From Prorocentrum cordatum (taxonomy: Eukaryota): DNA of 64,000 nt. Shown piece after piece: positions 5,647 through 63,834 of the stretch; the stretch's first letter is position 1; every line of letters begins with the position of its first letter. Location: contig CAUYUJ010000259.1 of NCBI GenBank assembly GCA_963575745.1, forward strand, positions 1 through 64,000. The letters run 5' to 3'. A program made the translations under genes and the position numbers. The notes under the pieces are model-generated. The model worked only from the letters and a program-made list of their open reading frames with translations, was not told where the DNA came from and did not search any database.

Positions 5647-5836
5647 TTAAGTCGGGCCTGTCCCCCTACAGGGGGATTTTCGACGAACCAGCAAAAAACA
5701 CAAAAAATGTGCAAAAATAGTCCAAAAATAGCCTGGGGACTATTATTTGAATATTGTTCGACCTTATTGGAATACTTTTGGGGTATTTTTAATTTTTCTT
5801 TGAAAATCCCCCTGTAGGGGGACAGGCCCGACTTAA
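5647..5836. mobile_element. MITE family A copy, perfect 35-bp TIR, 8-bp TSD AGACAGGC
   Basis: TTAAGTCGGGCCTGTCCCCCTACAGGGGGATTTTC is an exact inverted repeat of the right end; TSD at 5639-5646 and 5837-5844; the terminal 9 bp plus TSD is duplicated again at 5845-5861. Confidence 0.95.
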
Positions 5837-5941
5837 AGACAGGCCCGACTTAAAGACAGGCCGGGGCTGGGCAGAGGGAGCCCCTGCGCACGCTGGGCGA
5901 GCCTTCCCCTCCATCCCTCCTTGCGTTCGCCGGCTGGGCAG

Positions 5942-5980: not shown

Positions 5981-6479
5981 GTTGGCTCCCCCCAGAGAGC
6001 GAAAGGGGGAGTAGCACGAGGAGGAGAGAGGAGCAAGAGGTAAGGAGGGGGAAGAGGAGCATGAGGAGGAGGAAGACCAAGAGAGGGGGGGATGCGTCCA
6101 GAGATGAGGAGCAGGAGATGGGGAGGAGGAGCAGGATAAGAAGGAGGGACAACGGCTGAGGAAAATGAGACGGCGGAGGAGGAGGAGGAGGAGGTGGTGG
6201 ACGAGAAGGAGCACGAGAGGGGAAAGATCAGGCAATTCTAGGATCAGGATAATTGTTCCAGAGCGTTTCGGAGTGCTCTTAGAGCGGTCTGGAGCCCCCT
6301 CTGGAACGGCCGTGGCGCATGATTCAGAGATTCCCGATCTGTTCATAGATTCCCTCTTCTTAACCTCATCTCCAAGGTGGGGCCAGCGAGGGGGAGGAGG
6401 GTTGGGAGGAACAAGAGAAGGAGAGGGGGACAAGGGGGAGGGCCGGGACAAACATGAAACGAGTGGGACGTTGTGAATG

Positions 6480-6519
6480 AACATGATGATGCTGATGATG
6501 AAGATGCTGATGCTGATGC

Positions 6520-6552
<33 letters not shown>

Positions 6553-6562
6553 CCATGACGGC

Positions 6563-6629
<67 letters not shown>

Positions 6630-6731
6630 TGATGGTGCTGATGATGCCCATGATGATGATGATGATGATGCTGATTATGATGATGGACGGTGATGGTGCT
6701 GCTGACGATGCAGCGGATGATGATTGTGTTG

Positions 6732-6791
<60 letters not shown>

Positions 6792-7334
6792 CTGATGATG
6801 ATGATGATGATGATGATGACGGCGACGATGATGAGGACGATGATCAGGATGATGCTATCGATGATGAGGATGACGGTGACGATGATGATGATGATGATGA
6901 TGGTTATGCTGATACTGCTGCTGATGATGATGGGGATGAGGATGATGTCGATGCTGATGATGATTCTGCTGATGACAATGCTGCTAATGGTGCTGATGCT
7001 GCTGATGATCATGCTGATGATGAGGCTGACGATTAGGGTAATTAATATTGACGATCGTGGGGATGCTGATGCTGATTATGATGCTGATGCTGCTGACGAT
7101 GATGCTGCTGATGATGATGATATTGGTTCATGGCGATGACGACGTAGATGATGCTGATGGTGGCGATGATGATGGTGGTGTTGATGATGCTCATGATGAT
7201 GGCTATGCTGGTGATAATGATAGTGCTGATGAGGAGTGTGATGTTGATGCTGATGCGGCTGCTGCTGATTATGATGATGATGCTGCTGCTACTGCTGCTG
7301 TTGATGATGATGATGTTGATGCATATGCTGATGT

Positions 7335-7376
<42 letters not shown>

Positions 7377-7740
7377 GAATGATGATGGTGATGAGAATGA
7401 TGATGATGGTGGTGATGATGATGAGGATGATGTTGATGATGATGATGATGACGATGGTGTTGATGATGATGATGCTGATGCTGATGATGATGATGATGCT
7501 GATGATGATGATGATGGTGATGCTGATGCTGATGATGGCCGCAACGACCACGCAAACGATGCTCACCGTGATGACGAGTATAACAATGCTGCTGTTGATG
7601 ATGATTATGATGATGCGGATGAGGCAGCTGCCGTCGCTGATGATGATTATGATGCTGTTGTTAATGATGACGATGATAAGGCTGTTGCTGCTGACGACGA
7701 TGTTGGTGATGATGTTCGTGTTGATGATGATGGTGAGAGT
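6480..7740. repeat. Degenerate (GAT)n microsatellite
   Basis: Direct reading. Confidence 0.95.
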
Positions 7741-8261
7741 ACGAGGGTCCCAGTTCTAGTGCGAGCAATCCTCAGCAACGACTTTCGAGGCTGAGGTTCA
7801 GAATCTTCTTGAGAAGGAGGAGGGAGAGGAGGAGGAGGGAGGAGTAGACAGACGAGGCAGTATTGACAAGGGGTAGGATTTGGACGAGGATGGGAGGGAA
7901 AAGGAGGATATGTAGGAGGAGGAGGAGGAGGAGGAGGAGGAAGAAGAATCAGGATGATGCTGTTGCTGAGTAGGAGCATGAGGGAAAGGGGGAAACGCCC
8001 ATGTAGGGAATCGAAAGAATGAGAATAAAAAGGAGAAGCAGGATCATGCTGTGTAGCAGGAAGACCGAGGAGAAAGGGGGTTGGACCTGGATGATGATGA
8101 TGATGAGGAGGAGTGAGAAGGGGTACGATTGAGGAGAGGAAAGCCAGAGGAGGAGTAGGAGGGAGTACCGTGAGGATCATTATTTCCATGCACGTCATCA
8201 CCGTCTTTGTCGTTCTCGTTATGATCATCCTCATCCTCACTTCTATAGCCATGCATATTCA

Positions 8262-8305: not shown

Positions 8306-11300
8306 ATGGCGCAGACCAGTATATTCGGTGCTGTCTTGCAGGGGGTCGCTGCCGTGCTCCTGGCGATGCAGCCATGGATTTGCCCTGCAATCGTCTCTGC
8401 TTGTCCAGCGACGATGCAAGAGATGCAAGATTTCCACACTCAACTACTCACAAAGAAACAAAGTATGCTGAGACATTATGCCAAGGAGTGGAAGACCACA
8501 AAGAGTACCAAGACAGCATTTTTCCTGGCAATGCTGAAGCAGGATGACCCCGAAACATCTGCAAAGCTCTACGCCAAGGTCCTGAAGGGATTCCCCGACT
8601 GCGTCCATGCCGGCATGCATCGCGGCAAGGCTCTGCTGCAGCGTACGGCCCACACGGCAGCCGAGGAGCACTTTGACAGGACATTCAAGTCGTGGGCGGA
8701 CCGCATCAAGATACCCCCTGATTTCTTCCAAGACTATCCTTAAGTCGGGCCTGTTCCTCTACAGGAGGAATATTCGAGAATAGTCTCAAACATAATATTA
8801 TGTGTTCCATTATTATTTTTGACCATTATTATTTTAGACCATTTTGGCGTATTTTTCCCTCTGCTGGACAATGTTCTACATTGTTCCCTCTACGGGAAGT
8901 TTTCCTTATTATTTTTGACCATTTTGGCGTTTGTTTTTGGATTGTGTCTCATTTTTCGTCCAAAACCCCCCTGTCTAGGGACATGCCCGACCTAAGACTA
9001 TCATGAAGCCACTCGTGCTGCAGCCTTCGCCCGCCCTGGGGGTCCAGGCAACGTCTCTGCAGCCCGCTGGCGCAACATCATCACGTGGCCGAGGCCGGGG
9101 GTCCACATGCGCTCCCTGCCCCTACCCCCCCCCGATTTCTGAGGCAGGGCTGGACCTAAACGCTGTTTTACTGGGCTTCGGCTGTGTTTTGTTCTTCTTT
9201 TTGGGGGGGAGGCACAGGAAATCAGGCAGAGCAAAACGAAAGACAAAGGACAACAAAACGACACATAACGTTTAGGTGCAGCCCCGTTCTTAGGGGGAGG
9301 GTGGGGGAGGGTTCGCAAGTGGCCCCTGGAGGCTGCCAGAGGACGAGCGGTGCTACTTCGCCGCCTCCGCCGCCCAGGTGTACGCGGAGTACCCGGGGTC
9401 TTTTGGTGGCCGCGGGGCCGCCGAGGCTCGCAGGGAGACCTCCCTCGTCGTGCCGCGCAGCGCGTGCGGAGATCTGCCTGGCTGCGAGGAGAGCTATGAG
9501 CTGCAAGGCTCGGATGCAACTCCTGGGAGGTCAAATTCTGATTTTGCCCTGGTCCGAAATCCGGGTTACTCCCGCTTGGTCCCGCTTGATCCGGCGCAGT
9601 CCCGCTCAATCCCGCCTGATCTGGCTTAACCCGAGGCCCACTCCGGCGCAATAGCCCCTCCTCCTCCTCCTCCTCCTCCTGCCTCCTCCTCCGTCCTCCT
9701 CCTCCTCCTCCTCCTCCTCCTCCTCCCTCCTCCCCCTTCCCCCTCCTCTCATCATCCTCCTCCTTCTCCGCCTCCTCCTCCTCCTCCTTCCTCCTCCTCC
9801 TTCTCCTCCTCCTCCTCCTCCTCCTCCTCCTCCTCCTCCTCCTCCTCCTCCTCCCCCTCCCCCTCCCCCTCCGACGAAAGCCTCCCAGTGGTTGCCTCCG
9901 AAGCAAGGCCAGGTGCTCCAGCTCGGGGACCAGCTCTCGTCGCACTGCGACCTTGGCTGGCGCCTCCTGGGCACGCTGAGCATCAACGAGGGCGACGTCG
10001 AGACGGGCTTCCGCTACTATCCTCAGGTCGGGCCTGTCCCTCCGCAGGAGGAATATTCAAGCGTGGTCAAACAATCGTCTGGGGGCGTATTTTTGGGGGT
10101 ATTTGTTTGCGGGTATGCTTTGAGTATTTCTTTTTTTTTCTCATGAAGTCGGGCCTGTCCCTCTACAGGAGGAGCATTCAAACATAGTCATAAAACAGTT
10201 TGGTGACGAATATTTGTGTTGCTAGTTCTGCCCCTTTTGGGGGTATTTGTCTGGAGTATGTTTCAGTTTTCGCCCAGAGTTCCCCTGTAGGAGGACATGC
10301 CCGACCTAATACGATCAGAAGAATGTGGAGTCCATGCGCCACATCGATGCTTCACCTGAGAGAAGTTTGTCGAGGAAAAACCATCTCTCGAGCACCGGCC
10401 GCGTCGCATCCAGGCAGCAGTTGGATCACGATGCAGATCAGCTGGAGTTTCTTGTGGCCAAAGGCATGCTTCCGAAGGAGAAGTATCAGACATGGATAGA
10501 GAAGTTTCGCGCCGTCTCCAATCAGCTCCCCGACGGTGGCAACGTGCAATTGACTGACGATACGTTCCGAGCTATAGATCCCATGTATGGGCGTTTACAT
10601 TATCTGGCAGATGGTGATCGTTTGCCTAAGCAGGTGCTCGCTCAACGGGATCCCTCGGAGTGGGCAGCTTTCGAGACCGCTTTTGCGACTGGCGATGTAA
10701 TCGTCATCGACAATCTTCTCACAGAGGAGGCACTCCATTACGTCCGGAACTGGGCCGTTCACAGCACAATCTATTTCGATGCAAAGGCGCGTGGCTATGT
10801 CGGCAGCTATTCTGAAGACGGTTTCAGTGCTCCCATCATCGCTCAGATTGCTGCAGAGCTTGGTGCCGCATTGCCCAAGGCAACACAAGGCCAGAATGTG
10901 ACGCAGGCGTGGGCCTACAAATACGACAACAAGAAGAATGCTGGTATCCAGTACCATGCAGACATGGCCCTTGTCAACTGCAACTTATGGTTGACGCCAG
11001 ACCACGCAAATCAGTTGAAAGGGAGAGGCGGCTTAGACGTCTTTAAGAAGAAGGTGCCGCTCGAATGGGACTTTGACAGGTACAACTCAGACGAGGGCCT
11101 TCAGGACATGCTGGCGTTCATCGAAGATGCAGAGCTTGTCCGGGTGCCATACCGCGAGAACAGAATGGTTCTGTTCAACAGCCAGTATGTGCATAAGACG
11201 GACGACATCGATTTTAAGCCTGGGTATGAGAATCGTCGCATCAATCTGACACTGCTTTATGGAGACAAATACACTCCAGCGGAAGCATATGCTTTAGCAA

Positions 11301-11362
11301 AAGCAAATTATTTAGATTTGAACACAGATGAGCTTTGGCCTGGAAGCAGGCAGGAGCTATGA
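8306..11362 (+). CDS. TPR-containing 2OG-Fe(II) oxygenase-superfamily protein (~544 aa), retrogene; predicted exons 8306-8731, 8997-9047, 9913-10026, 10319-11362
   Basis: Hydrophobic N-terminus; TPR-like helices (AGMHRGKALLQRTAHTAAEEHF; WRLLGTLSINEGDVETGFRY); C-terminal HxD (YHADM)...H (YVHKTD)...R (RRINLT). Introns GA-AG, GC-AG and GT-AG are all phase 0 and give one open frame; the first junction is the least certain. Confidence 0.8.
8740..8995. mobile_element. MITE family A copy forming predicted intron 1 of the oxygenase gene
   Basis: TTAAGTCGGGCCTG...CATGCCCGACCTAA; TSD GACTATCC (8732-8739) / GACTATCA (8996-9003). Confidence 0.92.
10023..10309. mobile_element. Compound MITE family A copy forming predicted intron 3 of the oxygenase gene
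   Basis: Left TIR variant TCAGGTCGGGCCTG at 10023, second left TIR at ~10144, right TIR ends at 10309; TSD TACTATCC / TACGATCA. Confidence 0.9.
10319..11362 (+). CDS. Terminal exon encoding the 2OG-Fe(II) oxygenase-like domain
   Basis: Uninterrupted 347-codon non-repetitive frame with HADxxxVNCNLWLTPD..N, GGL, PYRENRMVLFNS..VH.TD and GYENRRINLTLLYG motifs. Confidence 0.9.
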   Translation, partial: KNVESMRHIDASPERSLSRKNHLSSTGRVASRQQLDHDADQLEFLVAKGMLPKEKYQTWIEKFRAVSNQLPDGGNVQLTDDTFRAIDPMYGRLHYLADGDRLPKQVLAQRDPSEWAAFETAFATGDVIVIDNLLTEEALHYVRNWAVHSTIYFDAKARGYVGSYSEDGFSAPIIAQIAAELGAALPKATQGQNVTQAWAYKYDNKKNAGIQYHADMALVNCNLWLTPDHANQLKGRGGLDVFKKKVPLEWDFDRYNSDEGLQDMLAFIEDAELVRVPYRENRMVLFNSQYVHKTDDIDFKPGYENRRINLTLLYGDKYTPAEAYALAKANYLDLNTDELWPGSRQEL

Positions 11363-13489
11363 CTACTGGTGATGCGCCCTCCGCCAGTAGACGGACTCGA
11401 GAGGGGCATATGGCAATCGCTCTCAACTGCTCAAACACAACGCTGATGCTTTTACCGATAGTCATGCTACTGCTACTTGCTGCTATTGCATACCGCCAAT
11501 GTTACGGTGATTGCCGTTGCATTGTTTTTTTGTGTCAACCGTTGCCAGGCCTATTTTTCCAGACTGCTGCCCGCGCCTTCTAAGAAGCAGTTTCCTTCTG
11601 AGTGGCCTTCCTCCCTCCCCCTTCGCAGACATACGACGACCGGAAGTCTTCATTACGCGGTCCCCAGGAGTCCCGACCCATTCCCTGGGGCCAGTTTTTC
11701 GTCCCGAGTCGTCGTTTGACGGTCTTGGGGCCCGGCGAGGGCCCCCGAGGCCGAAACGTAGTAGAAGACCTCCCGCCCGGATGTTTTCACGACGCGAGCA
11801 TGTTCGGATCCCCCCCCCTGCGCGCCGCCAATCTGTTGGCGGTTCCCGGCGTTGCCTGCTCGGGTCCCGGCAGCCTTCCCTGATGGCGTTTGGTGCGTTT
11901 GGTCTCCACCGCAGGCGTGTCCCCCATGTCCGCCGCCCTGCAGCCTTGGGAGCAGGAAGCGCACCAACACCACCACCACCACCACCCGATAGGCATTCAG
12001 GATGTCGAACGTGGCTAGGGCGAGGGTGCATTCGTTTCAGAGCGTTCCGGAACGCTCTCAGAGCGTTCTGGAACGCTCTGAAAAGGCCGCGGCGCCCGAG
12101 ACAACCTCCAGAGCCGCTGGATCTCAGATAATCTCGATCTATCCCCGCCCGATCTTGCCCTCGTTTGGGCTTCGTCTTCGGATGGGCCCACCACCCCGGA
12201 CCACCGTCTGCCTCTGGCCGCCAAGGTGCCCTCCTCGTGGGCGGCGGCGCATGGGCGCGGGGACAAATCGCGCGTCGCCCATCGCGGGGCGCGGCGCGCG
12301 AAGAGTTTGGCGACCCAGGGAAATTATCTACATACACACCTCGGCCGCGAGCGAGGGGGGGGAAGTGGCGGGACTTTTCAGAAGCCCTCCATTGAGAAGC
12401 TGTCCGTGTCGTCCAGGCAGTCTCAGAACATTTCTCAGAAGGCTGGGTGACTTCCGAGTCTTGTACGAAGGCCGTCTCCTTCTCCTTCTTATTTCCCCCC
12501 CCGTGCTCGCCGCCGAACATCCTTCTTATGCTTCTCTGGCTGCCGAGCTCTCACGAGGAGGCGGATGCGTCTCCGCCCCTGCGCTCGGGAAGGTGCCTAA
12601 ACCTTGGCTCCCCAGGGGTCCAGGCCAGAACGGATGTGCTTTTTATTGTGGTCCATACGGGCTCCCCAGTCCCTTTCGACCCCCTCCTGGGGACTGGATT
12701 TTCGTCCTGGATCGTCTCTTAATTGTTGCCTGGGGGTCCAGACGTGCCCCCCCCAGAGGCCGACGTAGAAGGCTTTGGAAGACGGCGGAGGTCTGGGACC
12801 AGGCGGCAGGCATCGATCCGCAGACCCCTCCAGAACCTCAGATGGAATCTAATCTAGCCGTAGCCACCCTGAACCTCGGCCTTCGAATCAAGATCCCAGA
12901 CGCCAGGTTTTTTCTGGCTTGGAAGCCCAGAGGTCTCTCCAGGATCCAGTGTTTCGTCCCGGGCCTTTTTTTCGACGGCCCCCCCGGGCCGACGGAGGCC
13001 ACCCAGAGGCCGAACATGTCAAAAGCCTTCCGTCATGAATGTTTCACGATTCGCTGGAGTCTGGTGATCTTGAGGAAGTTCTGGAGGGGAACTTATTTTT
13101 TGCGTCGGTGGCTAGGTAAGGGTCGTCTGCGCTGGCGGACGAATCTAACTAAAGGAGGGGGTAATCACAGGCACAATTACTCGTCGACTCCCAGGAAGAT
13201 TTTGAAGCATCTGGGAAGTGGGGGGAAGACGAAAACTCCAGAATCTATTGGTACATATGGGGAATGCTAAGATTTGTGCCTGTTTATTCAATCGCTTCGC
13301 TTACTCCGCCGGCCCGTATTGCATGATCGCTACTGCTTCGGCGCGGGCTCGGGGCCATTTCGGCGCCGCCGGAAGGAGGAAGATGAGGATGGGGAGGGAG
13401 AGGGGAGGTGGAGAAGAGGATGAGAAGGAACGGAGGAGGATGAAGATAAATATGATGAGGAGGAGGAGGAGGAAGAGGAAATGGCGGAA

Positions 13490-14200
13490 GAGGAAGCCTC
13501 TCGATGGCATTTTGTGGCGCTCTTGGGGCCAAACAGGGCTGTCGTCCAGATGCTTCTTTGGGAGGCCCTGGGGTCTGTTGAGAGGCCGTTCGGGGGCGCC
13601 TGGGAGACATTTTTGAAGCCTTGTAGGGCCTCTTTTGAGCCTCCTTGGAGCCTCCTGGGGTCTCTTGGGGGCCTCTTGGCGGCATCTTGGGCCATTTTGG
13701 GGGCCTCTCGGGGCCTCCTGGGGCCCTCTTGGGGCGGAAGGCTTGAGGTTTCGGTTCGTGGTCCCCATCTTGGGCCCCTCTTGGGGCCGTCTTGGGGCTC
13801 TCTTGGGCCGTCTTGGGCGTCTCTTGGGCCGTCTCGGGGCCCGTTTGGGCTCTCTGGGGGCCTCCTTGGGGGCCTCTTGAGCCGTCTTCGTGCGCTATTG
13901 AGGCCTCTTGGGCCGTCTTGCAGCATCGGAAAGCCGAAAATGCGACAAGGCCAAAATCCTTCCAAAACCATCGTAAAATTGATGATTTTGGCCTCTCGGG
14001 GCGCTCTTGTGAGGCCTCTTGGAGGCCACTTGGAGCGTCTTGGCGGCTTCTTGGGCCGTCTTGGGATCATCTTCGGCGTCTTGGAGCGTCCTTTGGGCGT
14101 CTCGAGGGCCTCTTGGGCAGTCTTGGGGGCCTCTTGGGGCCCTCCTGGCGCGCTCTGGGGGGCCTGAGAGGCGGTACCCAGGAGCGCAACCATCTCTGAG
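13490..14200. repeat. Dispersed repeat built of degenerate CTCTTGGG(G)CC subunits
   Basis: Homologous blocks with a shared A-rich core (TCGGAAAG...GATTTTxGC) at ~18950-19620 and ~62120-62740. Confidence 0.85.

Positions 14201-14349: not shown

Positions 14350-63834
<49,485 letters not shown>

What the first reader, a model, noticed from the sequence alone, without database searches (positions are those of the whole stretch)
10015..10318. MITE converted into an intron: TIR edits remove an in-frame stop and improve the donor to CAG|GT
Seen: most left ends read TTAAGTCGGG, which here would put TAA in frame. This exon-inserted copy instead reads TCAGGTCGGG, giving CCT CAG|GT. The AG completed by the downstream TSD (TACGATCAG) is a phase-0 acceptor, so intron 10027-10318 yields FRYYPQKNVE versus the empty-site FRY(D/Y)QKNVE, a net gain of one codon. 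Inference: intron gain with the donor from the element and the acceptor from the host/TSD, apparently needing post-insertion rescue mutations rather than splicing perfectly on arrival.
Basis: partly seen in the sequence, partly recalled or inferred. Interest (0 to 1): 0.8.

Follow-up and report, generated by a model that had tools for sequence, protein, structure and literature searches.

The report
Transposon intron removed without GT-AG

Summary
The sequence facts hold. A MITE with TTAAGTCGGG-type inverted ends and an 8-bp target duplication (TACTATCC / TACGATCA) lies at 10023-10309 inside an open reading frame. Its left end reads TCAGG, and a GT (10027) and an AG (10317-18) are present. The element is really 1.7 copies: a partial copy at 10023-10142 and a full copy at 10143-10309.

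In 4 of 4 RNA runs from 4 studies, one contig joins 10018 to 10314. It skips 295 nt, which is 287 nt of element plus 8 nt of duplication. The register is ambiguous by 3 nt. The flanking exons match the window almost perfectly (one difference in one run). The mRNA reads FRYYQKNVE, the empty-site sequence, not FRYYPQKNVE. None of the four possible registers has G[T/C/A]...AG ends. There is no extra codon, and the 'rescue' bases lie inside the removed piece. TTAGG is a common family variant, and TCAGG occurs at a second copy.

Best reading (about 0.75): non-canonical, scar-to-scar removal at the RNA level, as in Amoebophrya introner elements. Main rival (about 0.15): the transcripts come from an identical copy without the insertion. 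This was not excluded, because no DNA reads were laid. Earlier notes of this scan report the same behaviour at other loci of this genome.

The parts
9904..10018 (+). Upstream coding exon (…QGQVLQLGDQLSSHCDLGWRLLGTLSINEGDVETGFRYY). An AG at 9902-9903 precedes it.
   Evidence: RNA contig pieces start at 9903 and run to 10018 in X1 and X5. X1 has 0 other letters here and X5 has 1. X12 and X13 cover it in part (table 8). The frame is open.
10015..10022 (+). Target-site duplication, upstream copy: TACTATCC.
   Evidence: It matches the downstream copy at 6 of 8 positions.
10023..10142 (+). Partial MITE copy: outer left inverted end (TCAGGTCGGGCCTGTCCC…) plus internal sequence, with no right end.
   Evidence: Direct repeat D1 (75% over 76 nt). 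nhmmer hit 10024-10132 to model positions 3-117 of 162.
10143..10309 (+). Complete MITE copy (left end TGAAGTCGGG…, right end …CCCGACCTAA).
   Evidence: nhmmer E=2.6e-43 over model positions 2-162. Inverted repeat I1: 27 nt, 81% complementary.
10310..10317 (+). Target-site duplication, downstream copy: TACGATCA.
10019..10313 (+). Segment absent from mRNA: 295 nt, equal to the 287-nt element plus 8 nt. The register may be shifted by 0 to 3 nt, up to 10022-10316, because ATC occurs on both sides.
   Evidence: table 5: joint 10018>10314 in 4 of 4 runs (depths 23.7, 5.8, 52.6, 4.6; 'both' = 3). Table 8 shows the two pieces contiguous in the contigs.
10314..11362 (+). Downstream coding exon up to the stop codon (conserved C-terminal domain).
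   Evidence: ORF 10310-11362. RNA pieces 10314-11435 and 10314-11441 have 0 other letters. 333 homologues, the best 88% identical.
11363..11441 (+). 3' untranslated end of the transcript contigs.
   Evidence: The contigs end at 11435 (X1) and 11441 (X5) (table 8).
10027..10318 (+). It was not seen in use.
   Evidence: table 5 has no joint 10026>10319 in any of the 4 runs.

Best explanation
A non-autonomous DNA transposon (a MITE with about 25-nt inverted ends and an 8-bp target duplication) inserted into a coding exon of a gene for a conserved but uncharacterised protein. It later became, or already was, a 1.7-copy composite.

The gene still works. After transcription, the cell removes the element together with exactly one duplication's worth of sequence, which restores the pre-insertion message without a scar. 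The cuts fall inside the two copies of the duplication. Bases 1-4 of the mRNA site come from the upstream copy and base 8 from the downstream copy. The cut sites carry no G[T/C/A]…AG signals.

The most likely guide is the stem formed by the inverted ends, which brings the two duplication copies side by side. This is the model proposed for the non-canonical introner elements of Amoebophrya and the nonconventional introns of euglenids.

Shown: the insertion anatomy, exact removal in polyA RNA from 4 studies, and non-canonical borders.
Inferred: that removal happens on RNA from this very locus, that the stem guides it, and which machinery does it (a permissive spliceosome or something else).
For: RNA evidence:
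- In 4 of 4 runs from 4 studies, one contig joins 10018 to 10314, skipping 295 nt, which equals 287 + 8 (table 5).
- The same contigs match the window over 9903-10018 and 10314-11435/41. X1, X12 and X13 have 0 other letters and X5 has 1 (table 8).
- The contigs also break at 9903, just after an AG, so they are processed mRNAs.
- The 20 runs that hold the stretch carry 0.58-0.77 of the sampled words. My arithmetic for exon-only content is 1143 of 1496 possible words, or 0.76.

Sequence argument that the RNA comes from this locus: the two duplication copies differ at 2 of 16 bases, while about 1240 exon bases show at most 1 difference from the RNA. A silent, insertion-bearing copy old enough to have decayed scars would be expected to differ from an expressed paralogue in its exons too.

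If the element were retained, the frame would stop at 10144-10146, before the conserved domain.

Structure: the outer left end and the right end form a duplex of -43.9 kcal/mol. The inverted repeats are 24-27 nt and 79-81% complementary. The whole segment folds better than 100 of 100 shuffles, z = -3.0.

Precedent: Amoebophrya non-canonical introns have 8-20-nt inverted repeats and 3-5-nt direct repeats across their borders (Farhat et al., PMC7789003, passages read).

Leads not checked by me: earlier notes of this scan report the same behaviour at other loci of this genome.
Against: - No DNA reads of any strain were laid, so an identical gene copy or allele without the insertion is not excluded as the source of the RNA.
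- Only assembled contigs were available. Contigs drop rare variants, and table 8 lists only part of the pieces (70 not shown). Absence of an element-retaining transcript is therefore not shown.
- In the minimum-energy fold the right end pairs with the inner left end, not the outer one. The outer closing stem near the cuts is weak in that fold.
- The mRNA site (T at position 4, A at position 8) is also what one would see if it were simply the ancestral empty site.
- This is a single locus. No other copy in the window could be tested for removal.
Confidence: 0.75

Rival explanations
1. The transcripts come from a different, insertion-free allele or near-identical paralogue (an empty site in DNA). 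The window's copy is a transposon-disrupted, silent or decaying copy.
For: The joined form equals a plausible ancestral empty site, TACTATCA. Dinoflagellate genomes are rich in duplicated genes, as stated for P. cordatum in the passages read. No DNA run was laid. Contigs cannot show absence of a retained form (header).
Against: The exons of the window match the RNA of 4 studies almost perfectly (table 8), although the duplication copies of the same locus differ at 2 of 16 bases. The downstream 348-codon frame is intact. tblastn with 7 homologues found only this one copy in the 64-kb window. Unchecked earlier notes report the same exact, signal-free removal at several unrelated genes of this genome. 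That pattern would need an empty twin for each of those genes.
Confidence: 0.15
2. The joined form is a reverse-transcription artefact. The enzyme jumps between the short direct repeats at the base of a stable hairpin, so the real mRNA would retain the element.
For: The geometry fits that artefact: direct repeats (ATC, and 6 of 8 of the duplication) flank a strongly folding segment. The artefact itself is recalled from the literature; I read no paper on it.
Against: The joined form is the assembled path of the whole 1.9-kb transcript at full contig depth in 4 of 4 runs from 4 studies. Artefacts are normally a minority beside the true form. A retained element would end the frame at 10144-10146, before the conserved domain.
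Confidence: 0.04
3. One reading: a canonical GT…AG intron at 10027-10318. The donor was created by two changes in the element's end and the acceptor is completed by the duplication, adding one codon (FRYYPQKNVE).
For: The GT and AG exist and the product would be in frame. Roy et al. describe such element-plus-duplication splice-site recruitment for Polarella introner classes.
Against: No joint 10026>10319 in 4 of 4 runs; all show 10018>10314. The acceptor is followed by AA, not G[A/C/T]. TTAGG is a frequent family variant (4 of 22 ends) and TCAGG recurs at 28536. This form could at most be a rare isoform invisible in contigs.
Confidence: 0.02
4. The element is cut out of the DNA precisely in a large share of cells (somatic excision), and the RNA comes from those cells.
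For: The product is a scarless empty site.
Against: The assembly holds the filled site. If the ancestral site was TACTATCA, both scar copies have since changed, which suggests long residence. I know of no germline/soma split in dinoflagellates (recalled). Most cut-and-paste transposons leave footprints on excision (recalled).
Confidence: 0.01

Closest known systems
Non-canonical introner elements of Amoebophrya strains A25/A120 (Farhat et al. 2021, PMC7789003; passages read)
   Same: A repeated, gene-less element with inverted repeats at both ends and short direct repeats overlapping the exon/intron borders. RNA shows exact removal, the terminal dinucleotides are not conserved, and the border is ambiguous within the direct repeat.
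   Different: The host here is a GC-rich, free-living-type dinoflagellate genome, not the parasite Amoebophrya. The direct repeat is a clear 8-bp target duplication, against 3-5 nt there. The inverted ends are 24-27 nt, against 8-20. This element is a clear MITE family member with target duplications, whereas only 10-31% of Amoebophrya introners could be assigned to MITE families. U1 snRNA status was not examined here.
Introner-like elements of Polarella glacialis and Symbiodinium (Roy et al., bioRxiv 10.1101/2020.10.14.339549; parts 1-2 of 4 read)
   Same: A dinoflagellate MITE that creates an intron on insertion into coding sequence. Several Polarella classes have 8-nt duplications, and one class has ends that vary between TAAG and TAGG, as this family's ends vary between TTAAG and TTAGG.
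   Different: All classes described there use G[T/C/A] at the 5' end and AG at the 3' end, recruited from the element and/or the duplication. Here none of the four possible registers has either. I did not compare sequences with the Polarella classes, because their supplement was not available to me.
Nonconventional introns of euglenids (as summarised in the review PMC11282704; passages read)
   Same: Non-canonical borders, inverted ends thought to bring the intron ends together, duplication-like repeats at the junctions, and a suspected MITE origin.
   Different: The euglenid signature is CAG at +4 to +6 paired with CTG at -8 to -6. Here it is met only on the 5' side, in one register, and not on the 3' side. 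Circular excised RNA was not testable. The lineage is unrelated.

Membership tests
Canonical introner / introner-like element (Roy et al.) | Multi-copy transposable element with inverted ends and a target-site duplication | tested here: met
   12 matches of the end 17-mer against 0.38 expected. About 11 copies or fragments by nhmmer. 8-bp duplications at 6 copies: four 8/8, one 7/8 and this one 6/8.
Canonical introner / introner-like element (Roy et al.) | The element is removed exactly from mRNA | tested here: met
   Joint 10018>10314 in 4 of 4 RNA runs.
Canonical introner / introner-like element (Roy et al.) | Borders G[T/C/A]…AG supplied by the element and/or the duplication | tested here: not met
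   The four registers allowed by the 3-nt ambiguity give AT..CG, TC..GA, CC..AT and CT..TC.
Canonical introner / introner-like element (Roy et al.) | Many family copies are introns of other genes | not testable with these tools
Amoebophrya-type non-canonical introner element (Farhat et al.) | RNA-supported intron without GT-AG | tested here: met
Amoebophrya-type non-canonical introner element (Farhat et al.) | Inverted repeats between the 5' and 3' ends able to form a hairpin | tested here: met
   24-nt (79%) and 27-nt (81%) inverted repeats. Duplex -43.9 kcal/mol. These are longer than the 8-20 nt of the definition.
Amoebophrya-type non-canonical introner element (Farhat et al.) | Short direct repeats overlapping both exon/intron borders | tested here: met
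   8-nt duplication, 6/8 identical, with 3 nt (ATC) shared exactly at the joint. This is longer than the 3-5 nt of the definition.
Amoebophrya-type non-canonical introner element (Farhat et al.) | Removal happens at the RNA level in cells whose DNA keeps the element | not tested
   No DNA run was laid. This is inferred from near-perfect exon identity against 2/16 differences in the duplication.
Euglenid nonconventional intron | CAG at +4 to +6 pairing with CTG at -8 to -6 | tested here: not met
   In register 10021-10315, +4 to +6 is CAG but -8 to -6 is AAT. The motif is as given in the review passages.
U12-type AT-AC intron | AT…AC ends with an ATATCCTT-like 5' site (motif recalled, not from a call) | tested here: not met
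   Register 10019-10313 starts ATCCTC and ends CG. Farhat et al. note the minor spliceosome as absent from alveolates.

The most novel reading that the evidence does not exclude
A free-living, GC-rich dinoflagellate has a splice-signal-independent RNA excision system, so far described in print only for the parasite Amoebophrya. The system recognises the stem made by a transposon's inverted ends and removes the element plus one target duplication without a scar, so even exon insertions are harmless.

This locus adds a detail. Because its two duplication copies differ, the mRNA shows that both cuts lie inside the duplication. That would fit an endonuclease-plus-ligase route guided by structure rather than a spliceosomal one.
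Probability: 0.25. Interest if true: 0.8.

Novelty: new member of a known kind. Interest (0 to 1): 0.55.

Why it matters
If removal is at the RNA level, transposon insertions into coding sequence can be fully neutral in this organism from the moment they land. They would need no splice sites and no 'rescue' mutations. That would help explain how dinoflagellate genes became so intron-rich.

It would also mean that gene models built on the assumption of GT/GC/GA…AG introns are systematically wrong at such sites. The published pipeline for a genome of this kind made that assumption. A GT-AG model at this locus would add a false codon.

In my three searches of the held paper library, I found non-canonical transposon-derived introns described for Amoebophrya, euglenids and the tunicate Fritillaria. 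Nothing I read there describes them for Prorocentrum or other core dinoflagellates. The Current Biology version of Roy et al. and all supplements were not seen.

Tried and rejected
- Whole-genome look-up: no genome is held.
- Full-length protein or junction-spanning fragments: the 'near' search gave 333 homologues, but none covers the junction at high identity (P0001, 88%, starts about 80 residues downstream). The 'longer' and 'shorter' searches found nothing.
- Distant homologues (about 40%) align on both sides of the junction (ARYY…DRNV against FRYY…QKNV, by eye). They cannot decide a one-codon difference.
- Upstream exons: tblastn with 7 homologues found nothing upstream of 10385. The first ~710 nt of the transcript contigs remain unplaced, and I could not test whether the MITE at 8740-8995 is an intron of the same gene.
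- Metagenome scans for relatives of the protein and for an exact 29-nt exon stretch found nothing.
- An open-frame test across five of the six other copies after in-silico removal (the script's flank read-out for 55851 and 63427 shows their boundaries set 1-2 nt off) is uninformative. Long open frames are common in this GC-rich DNA.
- Host gene function: no Pfam, NCBIfam or PDB sequence match.
- U12-type and euglenid-type signatures were considered and not met (see the membership rows).
- Parts of 11450-13600 had little or no RNA contig cover. I draw no conclusion from that.

Full report
WHAT IS THERE

The window is GC-rich (about 0.55-0.64 over most 2-kb bins) and full of microsatellites and short dispersed repeats. 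At 10023-10309 lies an insert with the ends of a MITE family. Intact copies of the family read TTAAGTCGGGCCTGTCCC…GGGACAGGCCCGACTTAA. The 17-mer of the end has 12 matches in the window against 0.38 expected from shuffles. A profile built from six copies finds about 11 copies or fragments.

Flanks read show 8-bp target duplications:
- 4240: TCCCAGTC, 8/8
- 5647: AGACAGGC, 8/8
- 55851: GTCTAAAG, 8/8
- 63428: GACCAGCG, 8/8
- 8740: 7/8
- the copy in question: TACTATCC at 10015-10022 against TACGATCA at 10310-10317, 6/8

A partial copy with a left end but no right end (10023-10142) is followed by a complete copy (10143-10309).

THE HOST GENE

The frame from 10310 to 11362 encodes a conserved domain. 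It has 333 homologues at E<=0.001. The best is 88% identical, and most of the rest are about 40% identical C-terminal domains of bacterial proteins with TPR repeats and of some protist proteins. There is no Pfam, NCBIfam or PDB sequence match. One diatom homologue is named a prolyl 4-hydroxylase-type protein by its source. I did not test that name. The upstream frame (…GDVETGFRYY) continues the protein.

THE RNA TEST

Twenty public runs from 9 studies hold the stretch 9875-11400, with at most 0.77 of the sampled words. Exon-only content would give 0.76 by my arithmetic (1143 of 1496 possible 31-mers).

I laid four runs from four studies. Two are on record as polyA RNA and two are guessed to be RNA. 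In 4 of 4, a contig joins 10018 to 10314 and skips 295 nt. Three letters (ATC) fit either side, so the removed piece is 10019-10313, 10020-10314, 10021-10315 or 10022-10316.

In the two long contigs (1949 and 1968 nt) the pieces 9903-10018 and 10314-11435/11441 are contiguous. They show 0 and 1 other letters respectively. The shorter contigs of the other two runs show 0.

The skipped length, 295, equals the 287-nt element plus 8. The mRNA reads TAC TAT CAG AAG, that is FRYYQKNVE.

The four possible registers give ends AT..CG, TC..GA, CC..AT and CT..TC. None has the G[T/C/A]…AG of dinoflagellate introns described by Roy et al.. The contigs also break at 9903, right after an AG, with about 710 further nucleotides upstream in the contig. 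They are therefore processed mRNAs with an ordinary intron next door.

WHAT THE MISMATCHED DUPLICATION ADDS

The two duplication copies differ at positions 4 (T/G) and 8 (C/A). The mRNA has T at 4 and A at 8. Neither 'upstream duplication plus element' nor 'element plus downstream duplication' is the removed unit. If removal is at the RNA level, both cuts lie inside the duplication: 1-4 nt outside the inverted-repeat stem on the 5' side and 4-7 nt outside it on the 3' side. One register (10019-10313) is symmetric, 4 nt on each side.

RNA LEVEL OR DNA LEVEL?

The joined form is also what an insertion-free copy of the gene would give.

Against the rival:
- The scar copies of this locus differ at 2 of 16 bases, yet about 1240 exon bases differ from the RNA of four studies at 0 or 1 position. 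A dead, insertion-bearing twin old enough to have decayed scars should also differ in its exons.
- The 348-codon downstream frame is intact.
- Only one copy of the gene is in the window.

If the element stayed in the mRNA, the frame would end at 10144-10146, before the conserved domain.

Earlier notes of this scan describe the same signal-free, exact removal at several other genes of the same genome: e1-7693999, e1-7695820, e1-7695824, e1-7695829 and e1-7626498. They are unchecked leads and I did not verify them. If they hold, an empty twin for every such gene is unlikely. I had reached my reading before seeing them (it is stated).

I put RNA-level removal at about 0.75 and the empty-copy rival at about 0.15. 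A reverse-transcriptase template-switch artefact gets about 0.04; the geometry fits, but the joined form is the assembled main path in all four studies.

THE 'RESCUE EDITS'

Both edited bases (10024 C, 10026 G) are inside the removed piece, so a TAA there would never be read.

Among the 22 family ends in the window, 8 read TTAAG and 4 read TTAGG, including this copy's own right end. The G at 10026 pairs with that right end, so it is a subfamily state and not a new change.

Two ends read TCAGG: this one and the minus-strand end at 28536, which belongs to a copy carrying a long (GTT)n array. I do not know whether that copy is exonic.

The proposed acceptor is followed by AA, not by the G[A/C/T] that Roy et al. 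report as strongly conserved after dinoflagellate acceptors. I see no evidence for selection on the end.

HOW IT PROBABLY WORKS

The outer left end and the right end can form a duplex of -43.9 kcal/mol. The inner left end and the right end give -41.0. The whole segment folds better than all of 100 shuffles (z = -3.0). In the minimum-energy fold, however, the right end pairs with the inner left end, and only a weak outer stem closes the removed piece.

The model I favour is the one proposed for Amoebophrya introner elements (Farhat et al., passages) and for euglenid nonconventional introns (review passages). The stem brings the two direct repeats together, and the RNA is cut and rejoined within them, independent of terminal dinucleotides.

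Whether a permissive spliceosome or another machinery does this is unknown here. It is equally unknown in those systems, according to the passages I read.

COMPARISON AND NOVELTY

By anatomy and behaviour, this is a member of the kind 'non-canonical transposon-derived intron'. It is closest to the Amoebophrya elements but has a clear 8-bp duplication and longer inverted ends. It fails the defining border feature of the canonical dinoflagellate introners of Roy et al.

My three searches of the held library and the passages I read from seven papers turned up no description of such introns in Prorocentrum or other core dinoflagellates. The gene-prediction pipeline of the P. cordatum genome paper allowed only GT, GC and GA donors. 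I did not see that paper's supplements, the Current Biology version of Roy et al., or any Polarella element sequences.

It is not a result of my calls.

VERDICT

- Observation: confirmed.
- Interpretation: right that the MITE acts as an intron; wrong about where and how it is removed and about rescue mutations.
- Residual doubt: RNA-level against DNA-level absence. Genomic reads or a gDNA/cDNA PCR would settle this.

Noticed in passing
window 5821-5862: After the MITE at 5647-5836, the last 9 nt of the element plus the 8-bp target duplication are repeated in tandem (17-nt unit, 2.5 copies, 100% identical). This gives a solo end followed by a third copy of the duplication.
   Followed up: partly
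window 15134-15298 and 16986-17148: Two MITE copies lie about 1.85 kb apart in what looks like a tandem segmental duplication (paired tblastn hits at 14605/16434 and 15761/17611). The first is flanked by a 23-nt direct repeat (22/23 identical) instead of an 8-bp duplication. The second shares only the right flank.
   Followed up: partly
window 28229-28540: A MITE copy whose interior is filled by a long (GTT)n/(GCT)n microsatellite. Its right end is the only other TCAGG-type end in the window. No clean 8-bp duplication is seen; a CGACGAT motif recurs on both sides but displaced.
   Followed up: partly
window 12037-12080: A 21-nt unit repeated twice contains a perfect 18-nt palindrome (GAGCGTTCCGGAACGCTC). 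Many RNA contigs of three of the four runs match it at about 85-93% with unrelated flanks (summed depth up to 98). It is probably another short dispersed element carried in many transcripts.
   Followed up: no
window 9657-9872: A 216-nt (CCT)n microsatellite lies directly upstream of the exon that starts at 9903/9904, in what the RNA contigs imply is an ordinary intron ending in AG.
   Followed up: no
window 8740-8995: A MITE copy (duplication 7/8, with an internal 16-nt tandem repeat) ends just before an ATG (…GACTATCATGAAGCCACTC…), about 900 nt upstream of the exon. Whether it belongs to the same gene, and whether it is removed from RNA, could not be tested.
   Followed up: no
window 10310-11362: The host gene's C-terminal domain has hundreds of homologues, mostly fused to TPR repeats in bacteria, but no Pfam, NCBIfam or PDB sequence match. 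It looks like a widespread uncharacterised domain.
   Followed up: partly
window 6483-7537: About 1 kb of degenerate trinucleotide (ATG)n repeat. Strongly G-skewed bins at 1-2000, 6001-8000 and 30001-32000 suggest further long simple repeats.
   Followed up: no
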